This document shows, one piece after another, positions 1-19,585 of a stretch of DNA of 64,000 nt. The notes beneath the pieces are model-generated. The model was given only the letters and a program-made list of their open reading frames with translations. It was not told the origin of the DNA and searched no databases. Origin of the DNA: Eledone cirrhosa (lineage: Eukaryota). The stretch lies in assembly GCA_964016885.1 (NCBI GenBank), contig OZ024741.1:270072001-270136000 (forward strand), in the 5' to 3' direction. The translations under genes and the position numbers were made by a program. Positions within the stretch are counted from its first letter, which is position 1. Every line of letters begins with the position of its first letter.

Positions 1-3000
1 TTACGGGACATTGCCTCAAAACAGTGTATGTCAATACAGTGCCACTACGACTCCCTCGAGAGTTACGGGACCTTGCCATAAAACAGTGTATGTCAATACA
101 GTGTCACTACGACTCCCTCGAGAGTTACGGGACATTGCCATAAAACAGTGTATGTCAATTCAGTGCCACTACGACTCCCTCGAGAGTTACGGGACATTGC
201 CACAAAACAGTGTATGTCAATACAGTGCCACTACGACTCCCTCGAGAGTTACGGGACCTTGCCATAAAACAGTGCATGTCAATACAGTGCCACTACGACT
301 CCCTCGAGAGTTACGGGACATTGCCATAAAACAGTGTATGTCAATACAGTGCCACTACGACTCCCTCGAGAGTTACGGGACATTGTCACAAAACACCGTA
401 TGTCAATACAGTGCCACTACGACTCCCTCGTGATTTACGGGACATTGCCACAAAACACCGTATGTCAATACAGTGCCACTACGACTCCCTCGAGAGTTAC
501 GGGACATTGCCCCAACACACCGTATGTCAATACAGTGTCACTACGACTCCCTCGAGAGTTACGGGACCTTGCCATAAAACAGTGTATGTCAATACAGTGC
601 CACTACGACTCCCTCGAGAGTTACGGGACCTTGCCCCAAAACAGTGTATGTCAATTCAGTGCCACTACGACTCCCTCGAGAGTTACGGGACATTGCCTCA
701 AAACAGTGTATGTCAATACAGTGCCACTACGACTCCCTCGAGAGTTACGGGACCTTGCCATAAAACAGTGTATGTCAATACAGTGCCACTACGACTCCCT
801 CGAGAGTTACGGGACCTTGCCATAAAACAGTGTATGTCAATACAGTGCCACTACGACTCCCTCGAGAGTTACGGGACAATGCCACAAAACACCGTATGTC
901 AATACAGTGCCACTACGACTCCCTCGAGAGTTACGGGACATTGCCATAAAACAGTGTATGTCAATTCAGTGCCACTACGACTCCCTCGAGAGTTACGGGA
1001 CCTTGCCATAAAACAGTGTATGTCAATACAGTGCCACTACAAACTCCCTCGAGAGTTACGGGACAATGCCACAAAACACCGTATGTCAATACAGTGCCAC
1101 TACGACTCCCTCGAGAGTTACGGGACATTGCCATAAAACAGTGTATGTCAATTCAGTGCCACTACGACTCCCTCGAGAGTTACGGGACCTTGCCATAAAA
1201 CAGTGTATGTCAATACAGTGCCACTACGACTCCCTCGAGAGTTACGGGACCTTGCCATAAAACAGTGTATGTCAATACAGTGCCACTACGACTCCCTCGA
1301 GTGTTACGGGACATTGCCATAAAACAGTGTATGTCAATACAGTGCCACTACGACTCCCTCGAGAGTTACGGGACATTGCCATAAAACAGTGTATGTCAAT
1401 ACAGTGCCACTACGACTCCCTCGAGAGTTACGGGACCTTGCCATAAAACAGTGTATGTCAATACAGTGCCACTACGACACCCTCAAGAGTTACGGGACAT
1501 TGCCACAAAACACCGTATGTCAATACAGTGCCACTACGACTCCCTCGAGAGTTACGGGACAATGCCACAAAACACCGTATGTCAATACAGTGCCACTACG
1601 ACTCCCTCGAGAGTTACGGGACCTTGCCATAAAACAGTGTATGTCAATACAGTGCCACTACGACTCCCTCGAGAGTTACGGGACATTGCCATAAAACAGT
1701 GTATGTCAATTCAGTGCCACTACGACTCCCTCGAGAGTTACGGGACCTTGCCCCAAAACAGTGTATGTCAATACAGTGTCACTACGACTCCCTCGAGAGT
1801 TACGGGACAATGCCACAAAACACCGTATGTCAATACAGTGCCACTACAACTCCCTCGAGAGTGACGGGACATTGCCATAAAACAGTGTATGTCAATACAG
1901 TGCCACTACGACTCCCTCGAGAGTTACGGGACAATGCCACAAAACACCGTATGTCAATACAGTGCCACTACGACTCCCTCGAGAGTTACGGGACATTGCC
2001 CCAACACACCGTATGTCAATACAGTGCCACTACGACTCCCTCGAGAGTTACGGGACCTTGCCATAAAACAGTGTATGTCAATACAGTGCCACTACGACAC
2101 CCTCAAGAGTTACGGGACATTGCCACAAAACACCGTATGTCAATACAGTGCCACTACGACTCCCTCGAGAGTTACGGGACAATGCCACAAAACACCTATG
2201 TCAATACAGTGCCACTACGACTCCCTCGAGAGTTACGGGACCTTGCCATAAAACAGTGTATGTCAATACAGTGCCACTACGACTCCCTCGAGAGTTACGG
2301 GACATTGCCATAAAACAGTGTATGTCAATTCAGTGCCACTACGACTCCCTTGAGAGTTACGGGACCTTGCCATAAAACAGTGTATGTCAATACAGTGCCA
2401 CTACGACTCCCTCGAGAGTTACGGGACATTGCCACAAAACACCGTATGTCAATACAGTGCCACTACGACTCCCTCGAGAGTTACGGGACCTTGCCATAAA
2501 ACAGTGTATGTCAATACAGTGCCACTACGACTCCCTCGAGAGTTACGGGACAATGCCACAAAACACCGTATGTCAATACAGTGCCACTACGACTCCCTCG
2601 AGAGTTACGGGACATTGCCATAAAACAGTGTATGTCAATTCAGTGCCACTACGACTCCCTCGAGAGTTACGGGACCTTGCCATAAAACAGTGTATGTCAA
2701 TACAGTGCCACTACAAACTCCCTCGAGAGTTACGGGACAATGCCACAAAACACCGTATGTCAATACAGTGCCACTACGACTCCCTCGAGAGTTACGGGAC
2801 ATTGCCATAAAACAGTGTATGTCAATTCAGTGCCACTACGACTCCCTCGAGAGTTACGGGACCTTGCCATAAAACAGTGTATGTCAATACAGTGCCACTA
2901 CGACTCCCTCGAGAGTTACGGGACCTTGCCATAAAACAGTGTATGTCAATACAGTGCCACTACGACTCCCTCGAGTGTTACGGGACATTGCCATAAAACA

Positions 3001-5350
3001 GTGTATGTCAATACAGTGCCACTACGACTCCCTCGAGAGTTACGGGACATTGCCATAAAACAGTGTATGTCAATACAGTGCCACTACGACTCCCTCGAGA
3101 GTTACGGGACCTTGCCATAAAACAGTGTATGTCAATACAGTGCCACTACGACTCCCTCGAGAGTTACGGGACATTGCCATAAAACAGTGTATGTCAATAC
3201 AGTGCCACTACGACTCCCTCGAGAGTTACGGGACATTGCCATAAAACAGTGTATGTCAATACAGTGCCACTACGACTCCCTCGAGAGTTACGGGACCTTG
3301 CCATAAAACAGTGTATGTCAATACAGTGCCACTACGACTCCCTCGAGTGTTACGGGACATTGCCATAAAACAGTGTATGTCAATACAGTGCCACTACGAC
3401 TCCCTCGAGAGTTACGGGACCTTGCCATAAAACAGTGTATGTCAATACAGTGCCACTACGACTCCCTCGAGAGTTACGGGACATTGCCATAAAACAGTGT
3501 ATGTCAATACAGTGCCACTACGACTCCCTCGAGAGTTACGGGACCTTGCCATAAAACAGTGTATGTCAATACAGTGCCACTACGACTCCCTCGAGAGTTA
3601 CGGGACCTTGCCATAAAACAGTGTATGTCAATACAGTGCCACTACGACTCCCTCGAGAGTTACGGGACCTTGCCACAAAACAGTGTATGTCATTACAGTG
3701 CCACTACGACTCCCTCGAGAGTTACGGGACATTGCCCCAAAACAGTGTATGTCAATACAGTGCCACTACGACTCCCTCGAGAGTTACAGGACATTGCCCC
3801 AAAACAGTGTATGTCAATACAGTGCCACTACGACTTCCTCGAGAGTTACGGAACATTGCCATAAAACAGTGTATGTCAATACAGTGCCACTACGACTCCC
3901 TCGAGAGTTACGGGACATTGCCCCAAAACAGTGTATGTCAATACAGTGCCACTACAACTCCCTCGAGAGTTACGGGACATTGCCCCAAAACAGTGTATGT
4001 CAATACAGTGCCACTACGACTTCCTCGAGAGTTACGGGACATTGCCATAAAACAGTGTATGTCAATACAGTGCCACTACGACTCCCTCGAGAGTTACAGG
4101 ACATTGCCCCAAAACAGTGTATGTCAATACAGTGCCACTACGACTCCCTCGAGAGTTACGGGACATTGCCCCAAAACAGTGTATGTCAATACAGTGTCAC
4201 TACGACTCCCTCGAGAGTTACGGGACCTTGTCATGAAACAGTGTATGTCAATACAGTGTCACTACGACTCCCTCGAGAGTTACGGGACCTTGTCATGAAA
4301 CAGTGTATGTCAATACAGTGCCACTACGACTCCCTCGAGAGTTACGGGACATTGCCCCAAAACAGTGTATGTCAATACAGTGCCACTACGACTCCCTCGA
4401 GAGTTACGGGACCTTGCCATAAAACAGTGTATGTCAATACAGTGTCACTACGACTCCCTCGAGAGTTACGGGACCTTGCCATAAAACAGTGTATGTCAAT
4501 ACAGTGCCACTACGACTCACTCGAGAGTTACGGGACCTTGCCCCAAAACAGTGTATGTCAATTCAGTGCCACTACGACTCCCTCGAGAGTTACGGGACAT
4601 TGCCTCAAAACAGTGTATGTCAATACAGTGCCACTACGACTCCCTCGAGAGTTACGGGACCTTGCCATAAAACAGTGTATGTCAATACAGTGTCACTACG
4701 ACTCCCTCGAGAGTTACGGGACATTGCCATAAAACAGTGTATGTCAATTCAGTGCCACTACGACTCCCTCGAGAGTTACGGGACATTGCCACAAAACAGT
4801 GTATGTCAATACAGTGCCACTACGACTCCCTCGAGAGTTACGGGACCTTGCCATAAAACAGTGCATGTCAATACAGTGCCACTACGACTCCCTCGAGAGT
4901 TACGGGACATTGCCATAAAACAGTGTATGTCAATACAGTGCCACTACGACTCCCTCGAGAGTTACGGGACATTGTCACAAAACACCGTATGTCAATACAG
5001 TGCCACTACGACTCCCTCGTGATTTACGGGACATTGCCACAAAACACCGTATGTCAATACAGTGCCACTACGACTCCCTCGTGATTTACGGGACCTTGCC
5101 ATAAAACAGTGTATGTCAATACAGTGCCACTACGACTCCCTCGAGAGTTACGGGACATTGCCACAAAACAGTGTATGTCAATACAGTGCCACTACGACTC
5201 CCTCGAGAGTTACGGGACATTGCCACAAAACACCGTATGTCAATACAGTGCCACTACAACTCCCTCAAGAGTTACGGGACCTTGTCATGAAACAGTGTAT
5301 GTCAATACAGTGCCACTACGACACCCTCAAGAGTTACGGGACCTTGCCAT
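1..5350. repeat. 62-bp tandem satellite, about 86 copies in the window (continues off the left edge)
   Basis: Unit TTACGGGACATTGCCATAAAACAGTGTATGTCAATACAGTGCCACTACGACTCCCTCGAGAG with an XhoI site CTCGAG in most units. Ends abruptly at ...ACCTTGCCAT followed by ACATATATG. Confidence 0.98.
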
Positions 5351-5487
5351 ACATATATGATGAGGTGTAAAGCACTTTTGAGTTCTGCTTGTGTTCTGCT
5401 TTATGAGATTTCTGAAAACTAGGATGTGTTGCAAATGTGTATATGTGTGTGTGTTTATGTGCATATGCATATATTTATATGTGTGAG

Positions 5488-5751
5488 TATTCTTTTATTC
5501 TTTTATTCTTTTACCTATTCCAGCAATACGGCTGAGGCTATGCTGGGGTAGCGCCCTTGTTGCTACACATTCTATCTCCAGCCTGTGTTGGCTGGTCATT
5601 GTTGCAAGGGGGAGTTCGTTGCTGCTGCCCTTAGGTTACCTTCGTACCGTGGTGTGGGCTCATCCGGGATCCTGGAGAGCAGGGTGCCGAGATGTTTCTT
5701 GAAAACATCCATGTCCACAACATGCAGATCTCTCAAATCCCTTGGGATTGA
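5488..5751 (-). mobile_element. CR1-group LINE 3' end (ORF2 C-terminus, 3' UTR and short tandem tail)
   Basis: Minus-strand IPRDLRDLHVVDMDVFKKHLGTLLSRIPDEPT...RAAATNS resembles the FK..LD.FL..IPD.P C-terminus of CR1-type ORF2. Ends in an (AATAAAAG)n-like tail; 5'-truncated at a TA tract. Confidence 0.7.
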
Positions 5752-7160: not shown

Positions 7161-7250
7161 ATGACTGTCTTTCACTATTTAGGGTTTGTATAAAAAATAT
7201 ATTGCCATAAAAGGTTTTATTACATACATAACCATAAATAGTATCCTTAA

Positions 7251-7304
<54 letters not shown>

Positions 7305-7394
7305 TTAAGGATACTATTTATGGTTATGTATGTAATAAAACCTTTTATGGCAATATATTTTTTATACAAACCCTAAATAGTGAAAGACAGTCAT
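7161..7394. repeat. Perfect 234-bp palindrome centred on a (TA)n tract
   Basis: 7161-7254 (ATGACTGTCTTTCAC...CCTTAATACT) is the exact reverse complement of 7301-7394. The (TA)n centre is itself self-complementary. Confidence 0.95.
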
Positions 7395-13592: not shown

Positions 13593-13786
13593 GAGGCGGT
13601 GGATTGGCAGTATCGGTAGAGGGTCGGACACCATGCTTTGACGCATAGAGTTGCGGCCCTTGCCACCATTCTGAGTTCAAATCCCGCCGAGGTTAACTTT
13701 GTCTTTCATCCTTACGGAGTCGATAAAATAAAGTACCAGTAATGCACTGGGGGTAATTGCTGGCCTTGTGTCAAAAGAAGAAACAA
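13593..13786 (+). mobile_element. tRNA-derived SINE family A, near full length
   Basis: A-box-like TGGCAGTATCGG, B box GAGTTCAAATCC, body GAGGTTAACTTTG.CTTTCATCC...GATAAAATAAAGTACCAG. At least 6 copies in the window. Confidence 0.85.
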
Positions 13787-13799
13787 TATATATATACAT

Positions 13800-13884
<85 letters not shown>

Positions 13885-13996
13885 TAAAAGGAATTCCAAC
13901 TTTGTCTGATTTACTCGTTTTATTTACAATCCTTTAAAATTTATAATGGTATTAGAATGAAATAGTATGGTAGAATATTAAATGTTAATTGTTAAT

Positions 13997-14035
13997 TGAA
14001 CAAGTACTTTCATGCTTTCGCAATCTTCAGGTTCA
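13997..14035 (-). ncRNA. Minimal type-I hammerhead ribozyme (minus-strand copy)
   Basis: Exact reverse complement of 14087-14125. Confidence 0.8.
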
Positions 14036-14086
14036 TATTGTGTGGTGACAGTTGAAAATTGCAAACTTAACTGTCACCACATAATA

Positions 14087-14125
14087 TGAACCTGAAGATT
14101 GCGAAAGCATGAAAGTACTTGTTCA
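14087..14125 (+). ncRNA. Minimal type-I hammerhead ribozyme
   Basis: TGAAC-CTGAAGA-T-TGC-GAAA-GCA-T-GAAA-GTAC-TT-GTTCA. Stem I is TGAAC/GTTCA, stem II is GNRA-capped, stem III is the palindrome AGTACT, and the cleavage triplet is CUU. Confidence 0.8.
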
Positions 14126-14295
14126 ATTAACACTTAACATTTAATATTCTACCATACTATTTCATTCTAATACCATTATAAATTTTAAATGATTGTAAAT
14201 AAAACGAGTAAATCAGACAAAGTTGGAATTCCTTTTATTAATATAATCTTCTATACACAATCATACACACCCGTGTATATTTATCTCTCTCTCTC

Positions 14296-14329
<34 letters not shown>

Positions 14330-14425
14330 CATATATATAGTAATAATAATAAATTTGAAGACTAAAATCCAAAGAGGGCTCGATAAGGATAAATATATAT
14401 CAAATATATAAGAACGGTAGAGCAA

Positions 14426-15991
14426 ATATTTATTAAAATAACAGATTAAAGTTTAAGCAAAGAATCGCTGCTTTCACCCTTAACAGCATCTTCTGAAACT
14501 AACAAAGTCAATCTGTAAACGCAGAACTGGATATTTCAAAAAACGTTGCAACCGGAGGAAGACAGGAAGACGATACTTTGGTTCGTGGAAACGTTCGCTG
14601 GCTAAGAACGGAAAAAACGAATATAATACGTCATTAATAGGAGCGGGGAAAAACAATTACGCGCAAAGACAGAACCACGTTTATGGTATAAAAGAGGTCG
14701 TAGACTAATGTTCTCTTAGGTGGTGCATAGAGACGTTCTCTGGCAATGAACGAAAAAAACGAAGATAATACGTCATATGTGGAGCGTGGAGAATAATAGC
14801 ACGCAAAGACAAAACCACGTAAATGGTATAGCAGAAGTCGTAGACTAAATTCTAACTTAGGAGACCGAATGAATCTCCGCTACGGAGTTAAGAACAAAGT
14901 AAATAAATACAATACAGAAGTAATAGAAATAAATAAATGCATGCACGCAAACAAAAACGTACATACACAAGCATACGCAAAAACTTACCATAGGTAAACA
15001 AAACCACGCACATATAAATGTGTGTGTGTGTGTAAGCGTGTATACAAATAAATAAATTATTATATAAACGTATATAAATAAATAAATACGTATATAACAA
15101 GCGCACACACATACCTACATGTAAATACACGAATGTTCGGAGACGTAAGTCAACCAAAACATTAGGTACACATATACACACGCCCTACATATGTACGAAC
15201 CTGCATACTCACACAGACGCAAAACTCCCGTATACACATAGCCGAACCATATGTACCAGAATATATAAAAAAAATTATACGCCATAACAATCAAATATAC
15301 GTACGAGAAGGTATACGTACCTTCACAAAACATACGGATAATATATACTTACCTATGCAAATAAGTAAAGGTATAAACATAACATATACTTAGCTCCCAC
15401 ATCGAGACGTAAAATATCCACGTATAGATCGTACTATCCGTTAGAGTATAACGTGGGGCTGTAATACAGGAAAGTTTTGTGCAATTTATGTTTACAAGCC
15501 GAAATTGCCTCAGACTTTTTGTTTAAGATGTGGTCTGTGGCGTAGAGTATTTCCAGGGCCTCAGCGGCGCAAAGGTCACATGGTCTTTTATTTCCGTTAT
15601 ACGATCTATCCTTAGCTAGGATCTCCCAGTGTAACTTATATTAGGTGTGGTTGTCTTTTAGACTCCAGATATAAGCTGAAAGTGACGTCATATTCCTTCT
15701 TAGAGGGTAACAAAAAGAATGGGTATGCATGTAAAGACGCTGCTTGAATCTATTGGCGGTTAACCCTATGTAGGCCCTACCGGACGTGGGTGTTACAACC
15801 TTACATTTGTAGACAATGTTACTAGAGAGGCATTTCCCGGATAGGGGGCAATCAACCCGCTGTCTTCCTCCGGTTGCAACGTTTTTTGAAATATCCAGTT
15901 CTGCGTTTACAGATTGACTTTGTTAGTTTCAGAAGATCCCGTTAAGGGTGAAAGCAGCGATTCTTTGCTTAAACTTTAATCTGTTATTTTA

Positions 15992-15999
<8 letters not shown>
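14426..15999 (-). mobile_element. 5'-truncated Penelope-like element with inverted terminal pLTR copies
   Basis: 140-bp inverted repeats 14426-14565 and 15860-15999, containing a decayed HHR-like CAGAAGA..GAAAGC, enclose a GIY-YIG remnant and 3' region. The right arm starts exactly where the ORF is truncated and ends in (TA)n. Confidence 0.85.
15435..15853 (-). pseudogene. Penelope GIY-YIG endonuclease remnant (not in the ORF track)
   Basis: DCPLSGKCLSSNIVYKCKVVTPTSGRAYIGLTANRFKQRLYMHTHSF...TSLSAYIWSLKD..*..WEILAK...CDLCAAEALEI...LNKKSEAISACKH. Has the IVY...YIG, FKQR..H, CxLC and LN...C.H motifs of PLE endonucleases; one in-frame stop. Confidence 0.9.
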
Positions 16000-17311: not shown

Positions 17312-17356
<45 letters not shown>

Positions 17357-17360
<4 letters not shown>

Positions 17361-19585
17361 GTAGAATAATCGAGAATCGGAAAAAACAGCTTACGAATTA
17401 ACGATAAACAGTATCCGATATGTGTGGCAGAGGGCTCAATAATTTGGATAAATCAGAGCTATAACTATCGTTAAAATACCAACACATAGAGATCATGTCT
17501 AAAATCACCCGTACAGCCGAAAAAGAACGACCAGGAAGATTCGGGTCACTCAAATAAAATATCAATAAATCAATAAATTAAATGAATGTAAAAAACTCAC
17601 CCGGACCCGCTAGAAGGATGTTAAATCTAGCTTCTTGGGTTTCTGCAATTCCTTATTCCAATCGCTATCAGCCCACATAAAAAATATATGAGACTTCTAG
17701 AGAAGGGGGGACGAGGAAGAGCTTTCTCAACGGGAATTCCGTCCGACAATGAAGAGAAGACCTTTAGCCAGAAACGCACATGGTACCCAGCAAGGGAGAT
17801 AACCTCTACATTAGCGAAAAATTTTGGTGATGTGCAAATCATGTAAGGATACAAAATATCACATATCGAATCAGAATGCTCAACAGACGTGTTAAAATAA
17901 ACAGGAGCTATTCATCAGTCAATAAGAATGACAAAAAATAATCAATAAAATTAACTGGTCAATAGCTAAGGTCTAGAGCTAAATATAGTAGAATAATCGA
18001 GAATCGGAAAAACAGCTTACGAATTAACGATAAACAATATCCGATATGTGTGGCAGAGGGCTCAATAATTTGGATAAATCAGAGCTATAACTATCGTTAA
18101 AATACCAACACATAGAGATCATGTCTAAAATCACCCGTACAGCCGAAAAAGAACGACCAGGAAGATTCGGGTCACTCAAATAAAATATCAATAAATCAAT
18201 AAATTAAATGAATGTAAAAAACTCACCCGGACCCGCTAGAAGGATGTTAAATCTAGCTTCTTGGGTTTCTGCAATTCCTTATTCCAATCGCTATCAGCCC
18301 ACATAAAAAATATATGAGACTTCTAGAGAAGTGGGGACGAGGAAGAGCTTTCTCAACGGAATTCCGTCCGACAATGAAGAAAAGACCTTTAGCCAGAAAC
18401 GCACATGGTACCCAGCAAGGGAGATAACCTCTACATTAGCGAAAAATTTCGGTGATGTGCAAATCATGTAAGGATACAAAATATCACATATCGAATCAGA
18501 ATGCTCAACAGACGTGTTAAAATAAACAGGAGCTATTCATCAGTCAATAAGAATGACAAAAAATAATCAATAAAATTAACTGGTCAATAGCTAAGGTCTA
18601 GAGCTAAATATAGTAGAATAATCGAGAATCGGAAAAACAGCTTACGAATTAACGATAAACAATATCCGATATGTGTGGCAGAGGGCTCAATAATTTGGAT
18701 AAATCAGAGCTATAACTATCGTTAAAATACCAACACGTAGAGACATGTCTAAAATCACCCGTACAGCCGAAAAAGAAAGACCAGGAAGATTCGGGTCCCT
18801 CAAATAAAATATCAATAAATCAATAAATTAAATGAATGTAAAAAAAACTCACCCGGACCCGCTAGAAGGATGTTAAATCTAGCTTCTTGGGTTTCTGCAA
18901 TTCCTTATTCCAATCGCTATCAGCCCACATAAAAAATATATGAGACTTCTAGAGAAGGGGGGACGAGGAAGAGCTTTCTCAACGGAATTCCGTCCGACAA
19001 TGAAGAAAAGACCTTTAGCCAGAAACGCACATGGTACCCAGCAAGGGAGATAACCTCTACATTAGCGAAAAATTTCGGTGATGTGCAAATCATGTAAGGA
19101 TACAAAATATCACATATCGAATCAGAATGCTCAACAGACGTGTTAAAATAAACAGGAGCTATTCATCAGTCAATAAGAATGACAAAAAATAATCAATAAA
19201 ATTAACTGGTCAATAGCTAAGGTCTAGAGCTAAATATAGTAGAATAATCGAGAATCGGAAAAACAGCTTACGAATTAACGATAAACAATATCCGATATGT
19301 GTGGCAGAGGGCTCAATAATTTGGATAAATCAGAGCTATAACTATCGTTAAAATACCAACACGTAGAGACATGTCTAAAATCACCCGTACAGCCGAAAAA
19401 GAAAGACCAGGAAGATTCGGGTCACTCAAATAAAATATCAATAAATCAATAAATTAAATGAATGTAAAAAAACTCACCCGGACCCGCTAGAAGGATGTTA
19501 AATCTAGCTTCTTGGGTTTCTGCAATTCCTTATTCCAATCGCTATCAGCCCACATAAAAAATATATGAGACTTCTAGAGAAGGGG
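17357..19585. repeat. About 626-bp tandem repeat, about 3.55 near-identical copies, between (TA)n and (TC)n(TA)n
   Basis: GTAGAATAATCGAG recurs at 17361, 17988, 18613 and 19239. The last copy is truncated at AGAAGGGG. Confidence 0.95.

What the first reader, a model, noticed from the sequence alone, without database searches (positions are those of the whole stretch)
13877..14245. Two-ribozyme palindrome: a 369-bp fold-back element with an intact hammerhead on each strand
Seen: about 177-bp arms with a 15-nt loop. Identical HHRs (13997-14035 minus, 14087-14125 plus) point outward, and the 3 arm mismatches fall outside the ribozyme. Inference: a transcript from either strand contains one ribozyme preceded by its own full antisense, so it is either an orientation-independent self-cleaving cassette or a self-silenced long hairpin (ADAR/Dicer substrate). 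It could be an extreme 5'-inverted PLE truncation, or a self-propagating palindromic retrozyme, which would be a new element class.
Basis: partly seen in the sequence, partly recalled or inferred. Interest (0 to 1): 0.8.

Follow-up and report, generated by a model that had tools for sequence, protein, structure and literature searches.

The report
Mirror-image stumps of a Penelope retrotransposon
This hairpin-shaped DNA is one of over a thousand similar head-to-head pairs of short end-pieces of a known kind of jumping gene (a Penelope-like retrotransposon), likely built anew at each insertion rather than copied as a unit, and its junctions give testable clues to how these elements insert.

Summary
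The palindrome and both hammerhead motifs are real, but it is not a new element class. It is two head-to-head 5'-truncated end-pieces (pLTRs) of a 4.2-kb Penelope-like retrotransposon with RT and GIY-YIG, found full-length in this genome. At least 1,075 such short palindromes exist, with variable centres; the same centre types recur across subfamilies and in both orientations relative to the tail, so they likely form anew at insertion. 52 of 98 sampled arms begin at -1..+11 of one site 31 nt after a TATA box, likely the transcription start; a weaker peak lies at the ribozyme cut. 43 of 49 palindromes have one tail, none two. Best model (inferred): both DNA ends prime reverse transcription, both cDNAs run off the RNA 5' end and are joined. 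Inverted pLTR plus tail, and opposite-strand hammerhead pairs, are published (PMC8557442, PMC4209133). The scan noted similar stumps in other genomes. No RNA data were available.

The parts
13786..13879 (.). (TA)n microsatellite: left part of the likely target site; no target duplication can be read in it
   Evidence: family ends abut (TA)n in most copies
13877..14052 (-). Tail-less inverted arm: family positions +23 to about +197 (3' end at 13880-13877, merging with TA)
   Evidence: L001: tail-less arm 5' end +23
13997..14035 (-). Minimal type I hammerhead motif, minus strand; predicted cut between 14002 and 14001
   Evidence: mirror of the plus-strand motif
14048..14052 (.). 5-nt microhomology at the junction (+1..+5 of the right arm = reverse complement of +23..+27 of the left arm)
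   Evidence: gap -5 class
14048..14245 (+). Sense arm, starting at family position +1 (predicted transcription start, 31 nt after a TATA box in promoter-bearing copies); the '15-nt loop' 14054-14068 is +7..+21
14087..14125 (+). Minimal type I hammerhead motif with palindromic stem III region; predicted cut between 14120 and 14121 (+74)
   Evidence: family copies starting at this site
14246..14287 (+). PLE 'tail', on this arm only; in full-length copies the same sequence runs on into the 5' UTR before ORF1
14286..14339 (.). (TC)n run then (TA)n: right part of the target site; (TC)n or (TATC)n follows the tail in 71 of 147 tail ends read, possibly priming slippage

Best explanation
The element is a head-to-head pair of 5'-truncated end-pieces of a Neptune/Nematis-type Penelope-like retrotransposon sitting in a (TA)n tract, likely made in one insertion event when two cDNAs ran off the 5' end of the element's RNA and were joined. 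Shown: parent element, variable junctions, a sharp 5' wall at +1, one tail per pair. Inferred steps: (1) a Pol II promoter in the pLTR (two CCAAT boxes, TATA at -31) starts RNA at +1; (2) the RT/GIY-YIG protein cuts both strands of (TA)n; (3) one DNA end primes at about +197 (no tail) and the other at about +240-260 (tail); (4) because these sites lie only 200-260 nt from the RNA start, both cDNAs run off at +1, or less often at the hammerhead cut (+74); (5) the free 3' ends join through 0-5 nt of microhomology or short fillers. Here the right arm's +1..+5 pairs with +23..+27 of the left arm. The product has no promoter and is probably dead; its ribozymes are passengers, predicted to be paired off in any read-through RNA.
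For: Parent: 4.2-4.3-kb copies L091, L092, L102; 775-aa ORF with RVT_1 (E 2.9e-6, below the curated cut-off) and GIY-YIG (E 3.3e-6, above it), DKG, YLDD, CX4CX2C motifs. Wall: 52 of 98 arms start at -1..+11, 0 of 98 at -15..-2, 19 of 98 extend further upstream; genome-wide 5,546 matches to a 20-mer just after +1 against 1,299 to a 20-mer spanning -18..+2. TATAWAAG at -31 in 15 of 17 promoter-bearing contexts, in two sequence variants. One tail: 43 of 49 one arm, 6 none, 0 both; P=4e-8 against independent choice. Symmetry: tail arm reaches further 5' in 22, tail-less arm in 17, equal in 1 of 40 parsed (3 of 43 unparsed); a single cDNA primed at the tail and copying itself would make the tail arm always the longer. 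Two templates sometimes: 3 of 50 palindromes have arms of different subfamilies at a linked dinucleotide; L214's left arm is 1 change from other copies but 10 from its partner. In vitro, a lizard PLE cuts and extends both strands, starts at two sites bracketing the tail, is predicted to be a dimer, and uses mainly uncleaved RNA (PMC11167929).
Against: No RNA data: the start site is inferred from truncation ends and promoter motifs only (one search listed no RNA holder). An extra G from a cap was not clearly seen. Arms are mostly of the same subfamily (47 of 50; random would give about 23 mixed) and some share rare variants (L183 seven, L211 a long deletion), which fits self-copying or one shared RNA as well. 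The commonest junction (CAACWGTTG) can also be drawn as a 1-bp snap-back of one cDNA. The 3 discordant cases could be later gene conversion. Samples come from the first 137 Mb of contig C1 and need exact-match anchors, so they favour younger copies.
Confidence: 0.7

Rival explanations
1. Same parent and same origin at insertion, but by snap-back: one cDNA reaches the RNA 5' end, folds on itself and copies itself back, with the tail lost or added during resolution. The window's junction is a natural 5-6-bp hairpin at the cDNA end.
For: +1..+8 pairs with +20..+27 in the folded sense arm; arms share subfamily in 47 of 50 and sometimes rare private variants; the arms of the 8.7-kb palindrome L102 are 99.9% identical; self-priming was proposed for PLE palindromic junctions (PMC3846280, passages).
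Against: The tail-less arm is the longer one in 17 of 40, so the second arm would need a tail absent from its template; for the window's own junction type it is 5 versus 5; zero-loop joins (L160) and fillers between two intact 5' ends (L169, L190); 3 of 50 discordant pairs. A hybrid (snap-back plus a second primer supplying the tail) is not excluded.
Confidence: 0.22
2. A self-propagating palindromic retrozyme: the palindrome is transcribed and retrotransposed as a unit.
For: At least 1,075 dispersed short palindromes; one junction class (span 105) is about 20 of 49; L185 and L186 share a rare junction variant with different flanks.
Against: Junctions vary; the common classes occur in all subfamilies and in both orientations to the tail; solo stumps with the same +1 start are common; the same inversion occurs with arms from 0.1 to 4.3 kb; no promoter; no tandem head-to-tail monomers as in retrozymes.
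Confidence: 0.04
3. A functional host element: an orientation-independent cleavage cassette or a selected source of dsRNA or small RNA against the family.
For: A read-through RNA would form a ~177-bp near-perfect hairpin; PLEs give small RNAs in a rotifer (PMC3846280, passages).
Against: This copy is one of thousands and 2-3 changes from other copies, with nothing pointing to selection; the hairpin is predicted to block ribozyme folding; motifs on opposite strands cannot form the dimer in cis.
Confidence: 0.04

Closest known systems
Insertion units of endonuclease-positive Penelope-like elements: pLTR, adjacent inverted 5'-truncated copy, 30-40-bp tail at one end, (TA)n targets (PMC8557442, passages; PMC3846280, passages)
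   Same: Head-to-head inverted pLTR, tail at one end only, palindromic junction, microsatellite target, TATA-like promoter in the pLTR, hammerhead in the pLTR.
   Different: Here both halves are cut down to about 200-240 nt at one sharp position, and this minimal form is present in over a thousand copies; the passages read do not describe such a wall or count tail asymmetry.
Opposite-strand pairs of minimal hammerheads 100-700 bp apart in Schistosoma mansoni, ascribed to truncated PLEs (PMC4209133, parts 1-2 of 4 read)
   Same: Two minimal type I hammerheads on opposite strands, close together, from truncated PLEs; short palindromic stem III.
   Different: Different host and family; stem II here is 3 bp; that paper did not analyse junctions in the parts read.
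Poseidon PLE of Anolis (PAc) in vitro (PMC11167929, parts 1-2 of 4 read)
   Same: Two RT start sites bracketing the tail, both strands cut and extended, AT-rich target, uncleaved RNA as main template.
   Different: PAc is Penelope/Poseidon clade with one ORF and starts at sites not homologous to the target; here both start sites are TA-like and copies starting at the ribozyme cut exist in the genome.
Non-LTR retrozymes (bioRxiv 10.64898/2026.07.22.740005, part 1 of 5 read)
   Same: Short, non-coding, type I hammerhead, PLE-derived.
   Different: Retrozymes are head-to-tail tandem arrays with same-strand ribozymes; this is a head-to-head pair with one ribozyme per strand.
Twin priming of L1
   Same: Two primers from the two target ends give an inverted insertion joined by microhomology.
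   Different: In L1 the two cDNAs cover different parts of one RNA; here both cover the same part, giving a palindrome.

Membership tests
EN+ Penelope-like element (parent family) | [quoted passage not shown] | tested here: met
   L102 ORF2, 775 aa: RVT_1 299-439, GIY-YIG 687-773; DKG and YLDD motifs
EN+ Penelope-like element (parent family) | pLTR with hammerhead motif, partial tandem and inverted structures | tested here: met
   L091, L092: same-strand motifs 4.2 kb apart plus inverted copy
EN+ Penelope-like element (parent family) | [quoted passage not shown] | tested here: met
   about 42-nt tail on one arm in 43 of 49 palindromes and in the window copy
Neptune/Nematis clades | CX2-5CxxC motif between RT and EN; CCHH motif in EN | tested here: met
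   CNDNRCGTC at 650; CIKC within GIY-YIG, His at 715 and 732; definition from PMC8557442
Neptune/Nematis clades | RT tree placement separating Neptune from Nematis | not tested
   no named reference proteins among the 120 listed homologues
Minimal type I hammerhead ribozyme | Core CUGANGA, GAAA, NUH with stems I and II and short palindromic stem III | tested here: met
   not reached by Rfam gathering scores
Minimal type I hammerhead ribozyme | Self-cleavage | tested here: inconclusive
   indirect only: 30 against 5 junction-like matches at the cut versus one control site; 7 of 26 ends in +12..+140 fall at +69..+78; no assay
Non-LTR retrozyme | Head-to-tail tandem monomers each with a same-strand hammerhead | tested here: not met
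   window element is a single head-to-head pair
Non-LTR retrozyme | Circular RNA of monomer length | not testable with these tools
   no RNA run listed
MITE or fold-back DNA transposon | Symmetric fixed termini and constant unit | tested here: not met
   one-sided tail, variable centre and arm length, RT-encoding parent

The most novel reading that the evidence does not exclude
These stumps are a genomic record of the Penelope transposition cycle: a dimeric RNP primes from both ends of a double-strand cut in a coordinated way (one end at each side of the tail), sometimes on two different RNAs; on linear RNA the default product is a run-off to the transcription start, and the hammerhead does cut in vivo, so its job would be to cut and circularise the RNA so that the 5'-near priming site yields more-than-unit copies with a promoter. 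L155/L156, an 844-nt unit starting at the cut and repeated in tandem, would be a copy of such a circle.
Probability: 0.4. Interest if true: 0.65.

Novelty: new member of a known kind. Interest (0 to 1): 0.38.

Why it matters
As an element it is ordinary: a known PLE insertion shape. Its value is as a large natural data set on an open question. The papers read state that how PLE inverted repeats and tails form is unresolved (PMC8557442) and that in vivo evidence for hammerhead cleavage was lacking (PMC4209133; PMC11167929 found no RNA reads ending at the cut). This family offers thousands of young junctions with a defined start wall, a one-tail rule, orientation symmetry and copies beginning at the predicted cut, plus a copy with two open ORFs for in vitro work. 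Practically, such stumps will be mislabelled as MITEs or new ribozyme elements, and each is a potential ~200-bp dsRNA if transcribed.

Tried and rejected
Rfam at gathering score over the whole window: 0 matches, uninformative for minimal hammerheads. RNA expression: no RNA holder listed; not evidence either way. Contigs of four runs laid on 13880-14290: none spans the element, so this copy's junction was not confirmed outside the assembly; in run X1 loose ends pile at 14048, 14245 and 14284, the three family boundaries, but X1 may be the assembly's own sample. Cap-derived G at -1: 12 of 27 'other' junctions have G, mostly explained by overlap with the partner arm; not claimed. Splice acceptor as cause of the wall (pyrimidine tract plus ACAG): rejected, copies keep +1..+4 (34 of 98 ends at +1..+4). 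RT stall at the 5' hairpin as cause: disfavoured, a stall would leave ends near +27, not +1. Sequencing fold-back artefact: rejected (see first-reader verdict). A genome-wide count of junction orientation against the tail was not obtained; orientation rests on 40 parsed loci. ORF1 identity: no Pfam hit under E 0.01, Atlas best score 0.84, a lead only. One search's 40 best hits are biased to palindromes like the query, so frequencies use instead. In one search, 66 of 98 arms were flagged as having an inverted partner; 6 of these are microsatellite mis-hits and 2 true ones were missed. The 30 matches include 4 that are internal variants, not 5' ends (26 versus 5 still P=2e-4); only one control site was tested. 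Literature searches found no paper describing twin priming or a start-site wall for PLEs in the listings seen; the library lacks most subscription papers, the older Arkhipova and Evgen'ev reviews were not read, and no supplements were opened, so this is weak.

Full report
Observation. The palindrome is as described: 177-nt arms, three mismatches outside the ribozyme motifs, 15 nt between. Each arm has the same minimal type I hammerhead motif (5-bp stem I, CUGAAGA, 3-bp stem II, GAAA, 2-bp stem III in a palindrome, CUU cut triplet; predicted cut 14120/14121 on plus). Rfam does not call it.

Family. The genome (3.0 Gb; an invertebrate, probably a mollusc, by inference from microsatellite content and the named homologues) holds 5,047 exact copies of the 39-nt motif and at least 1,075 short head-to-head pairs. 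Following copies upstream led to 4.2-4.3-kb elements (L091, L092, L102) with an ORF1 of about 449 aa and a 775-aa ORF2 carrying RT, a CX4CX2C linker and GIY-YIG: a Neptune/Nematis-type Penelope-like element by the criteria in PMC8557442 (passages). Window 14048-14298 is 92.9% identical to the 3' end of L102. In full-length copies the tail sequence runs on into the 5' UTR, as expected for PLE tails.

Do the palindromes move as a unit? Of the first 50 places listed I analysed 49 (one is a tandem duplicate). Palindromes belong to several subfamilies, and the common junction types occur in each. Inverted pairs also occur with arms of 0.5-4.3 kb, and solo stumps are common. This is what formation at each insertion predicts. 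One pair (L185, L186) shares a rare junction variant with different flanks, so rare secondary copying is not excluded.

Why so short? In 98 arms sampled by an exact 25-mer near the 3' end (those with enough fetched flank), 52 begin at -1..+11 of one position, none at -15..-2, 19 further upstream, 27 further downstream. Genome-wide 20-mer counts step from 1,299 to 5,546 across it. Promoter-bearing copies have TATAWAAG at -31 in 15 of 17 contexts and two CCAAT boxes upstream. I infer that +1 is the transcription start and that the stumps are run-off cDNAs; no RNA data could test this. The window's right arm starts exactly at +1 (14048); its left arm starts at +23 and overlaps by 5 nt of microhomology, so the 'loop' is just +7..+21.

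A second, weaker wall lies at the predicted ribozyme cut (+74): 7 of the 26 ends in +12..+140 fall in +69..+78 (P=0.003; window chosen after seeing the data), a junction pattern gives 30 matches (26 after removing internal variants) against 5 at one control site, the 8.7-kb palindrome L102 has its centre at the cut, and L160 is a zero-loop join of two ends at the cut. This is indirect evidence that the family's ribozyme cuts in vivo in a minority of templates.

One or two cDNAs? 43 of 49 palindromes have the tail on exactly one arm, 6 on none, 0 on both (P=4e-8 against independence); a tail-selected sample did contain 3 two-tailed pairs among 30 loci. The arm reaching further 5' is the tailed one in 22, the tail-less one in 17, equal in 1 of 40 parsed (a few rows are blurred by point mutations). 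Junctions show overlap of 2 nt or more in 16, 0-1 nt in 10, fillers in 14 of 40. At a linked dinucleotide, 47 of 50 palindromes have matching arms and 3 have arms of different subfamilies. Symmetry, fillers and mixed arms favour two cDNAs primed from the two target ends; high concordance and shared rare variants say they usually come from one RNA or one source locus, or from self-copying. The in vitro results on the lizard element (both strands extended, two start sites bracketing the tail, predicted dimer; PMC11167929, parts 1-2 read) fit the two-cDNA model. Snap-back, as proposed in PMC3846280 (passages), remains the main rival.

Function of this copy. It lacks the promoter. In a read-through RNA the antisense arm comes first and the predicted fold is one -276 kcal/mol hairpin, leaving no ribozyme fold; minimal hammerheads of PLEs need a same-strand partner and are weak (PMC4209133). 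It is most likely an inert by-product.

Novelty. Inverted 5'-truncated pLTRs with a one-sided tail and (TA)n targets are described (PMC8557442), as are opposite-strand hammerhead pairs from truncated PLEs (PMC4209133). So: new member of a known kind. After I had formed this reading, the scan's notes showed four similar cases in shark- and fish-like genomes (not checked by me); a sequence look-up found none. What this family adds is the TATA-anchored wall, the one-tail and symmetry counts, mixed-subfamily arms and ends at the cut site; I found no paper with these in seven searches of an incomplete library. Overall confidence that it is a PLE insertion formed anew at landing is about 0.92 (two-cDNA 0.70, snap-back 0.22).

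Noticed in passing
window 14340-15999: A second PLE in the same (TA)n tract: minus-strand GIY-YIG remnant with CxxC and CxH motifs like the Hydra clade of PMC8557442, ~85-nt one-sided extension at 14340-14425, inverted 140-nt arms 14426-14565 and 15860-15999. The same family abuts L009, L018 and L174.
   Followed up: partly
L102:4371-8700 (G000:C1:21872000-21881500): 8.7-kb palindrome of two full-length copies, 99.9% identical, centred on the hammerhead cut, both with open ORF1 and ORF2.
   Followed up: yes
L102:5837-5927: ORF1 and ORF2 overlap in the -1 frame with a T TTT TTA slippery heptamer, the same in L091, L092 and both L102 arms: predicted -1 ribosomal frameshift. ORF1 has no family assignment.
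   Followed up: partly
L155/L156 (G000:C3:222071940-222072805): Tandem of an 844-nt unit that starts at the hammerhead cut and ends inside ORF1, with the same junction twice: possibly copied from a small circular RNA, or a local duplication.
   Followed up: partly
window 7161-7394: 92-nt perfect inverted pair around (TA)24; the arm is the (TA)n-abutting end of another high-copy repeat (2,101 candidates); the paired arrangement is seen at 2 of 40 scored places.
   Followed up: partly
window 12344 (+), 28985 (+), 27642 (-), 10763 (-), 16873 (-): Further CTGANGA...GAAA cores that may be hammerheads of other PLE families.
   Followed up: no
tail ends in fetched loci: The tail is followed by (TC)n in 50, (TATC)n in 21, (TA)n in 34 of 147 ends read: the element may seed (GA)n and (GATA)n microsatellites by slippage at priming.
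   Followed up: partly
window 1-5351, 17356-19585, 38212-64000: Tandem arrays with 62-bp, 625-bp and 47-bp units; the last fills 26 kb to the window end.
   Followed up: no
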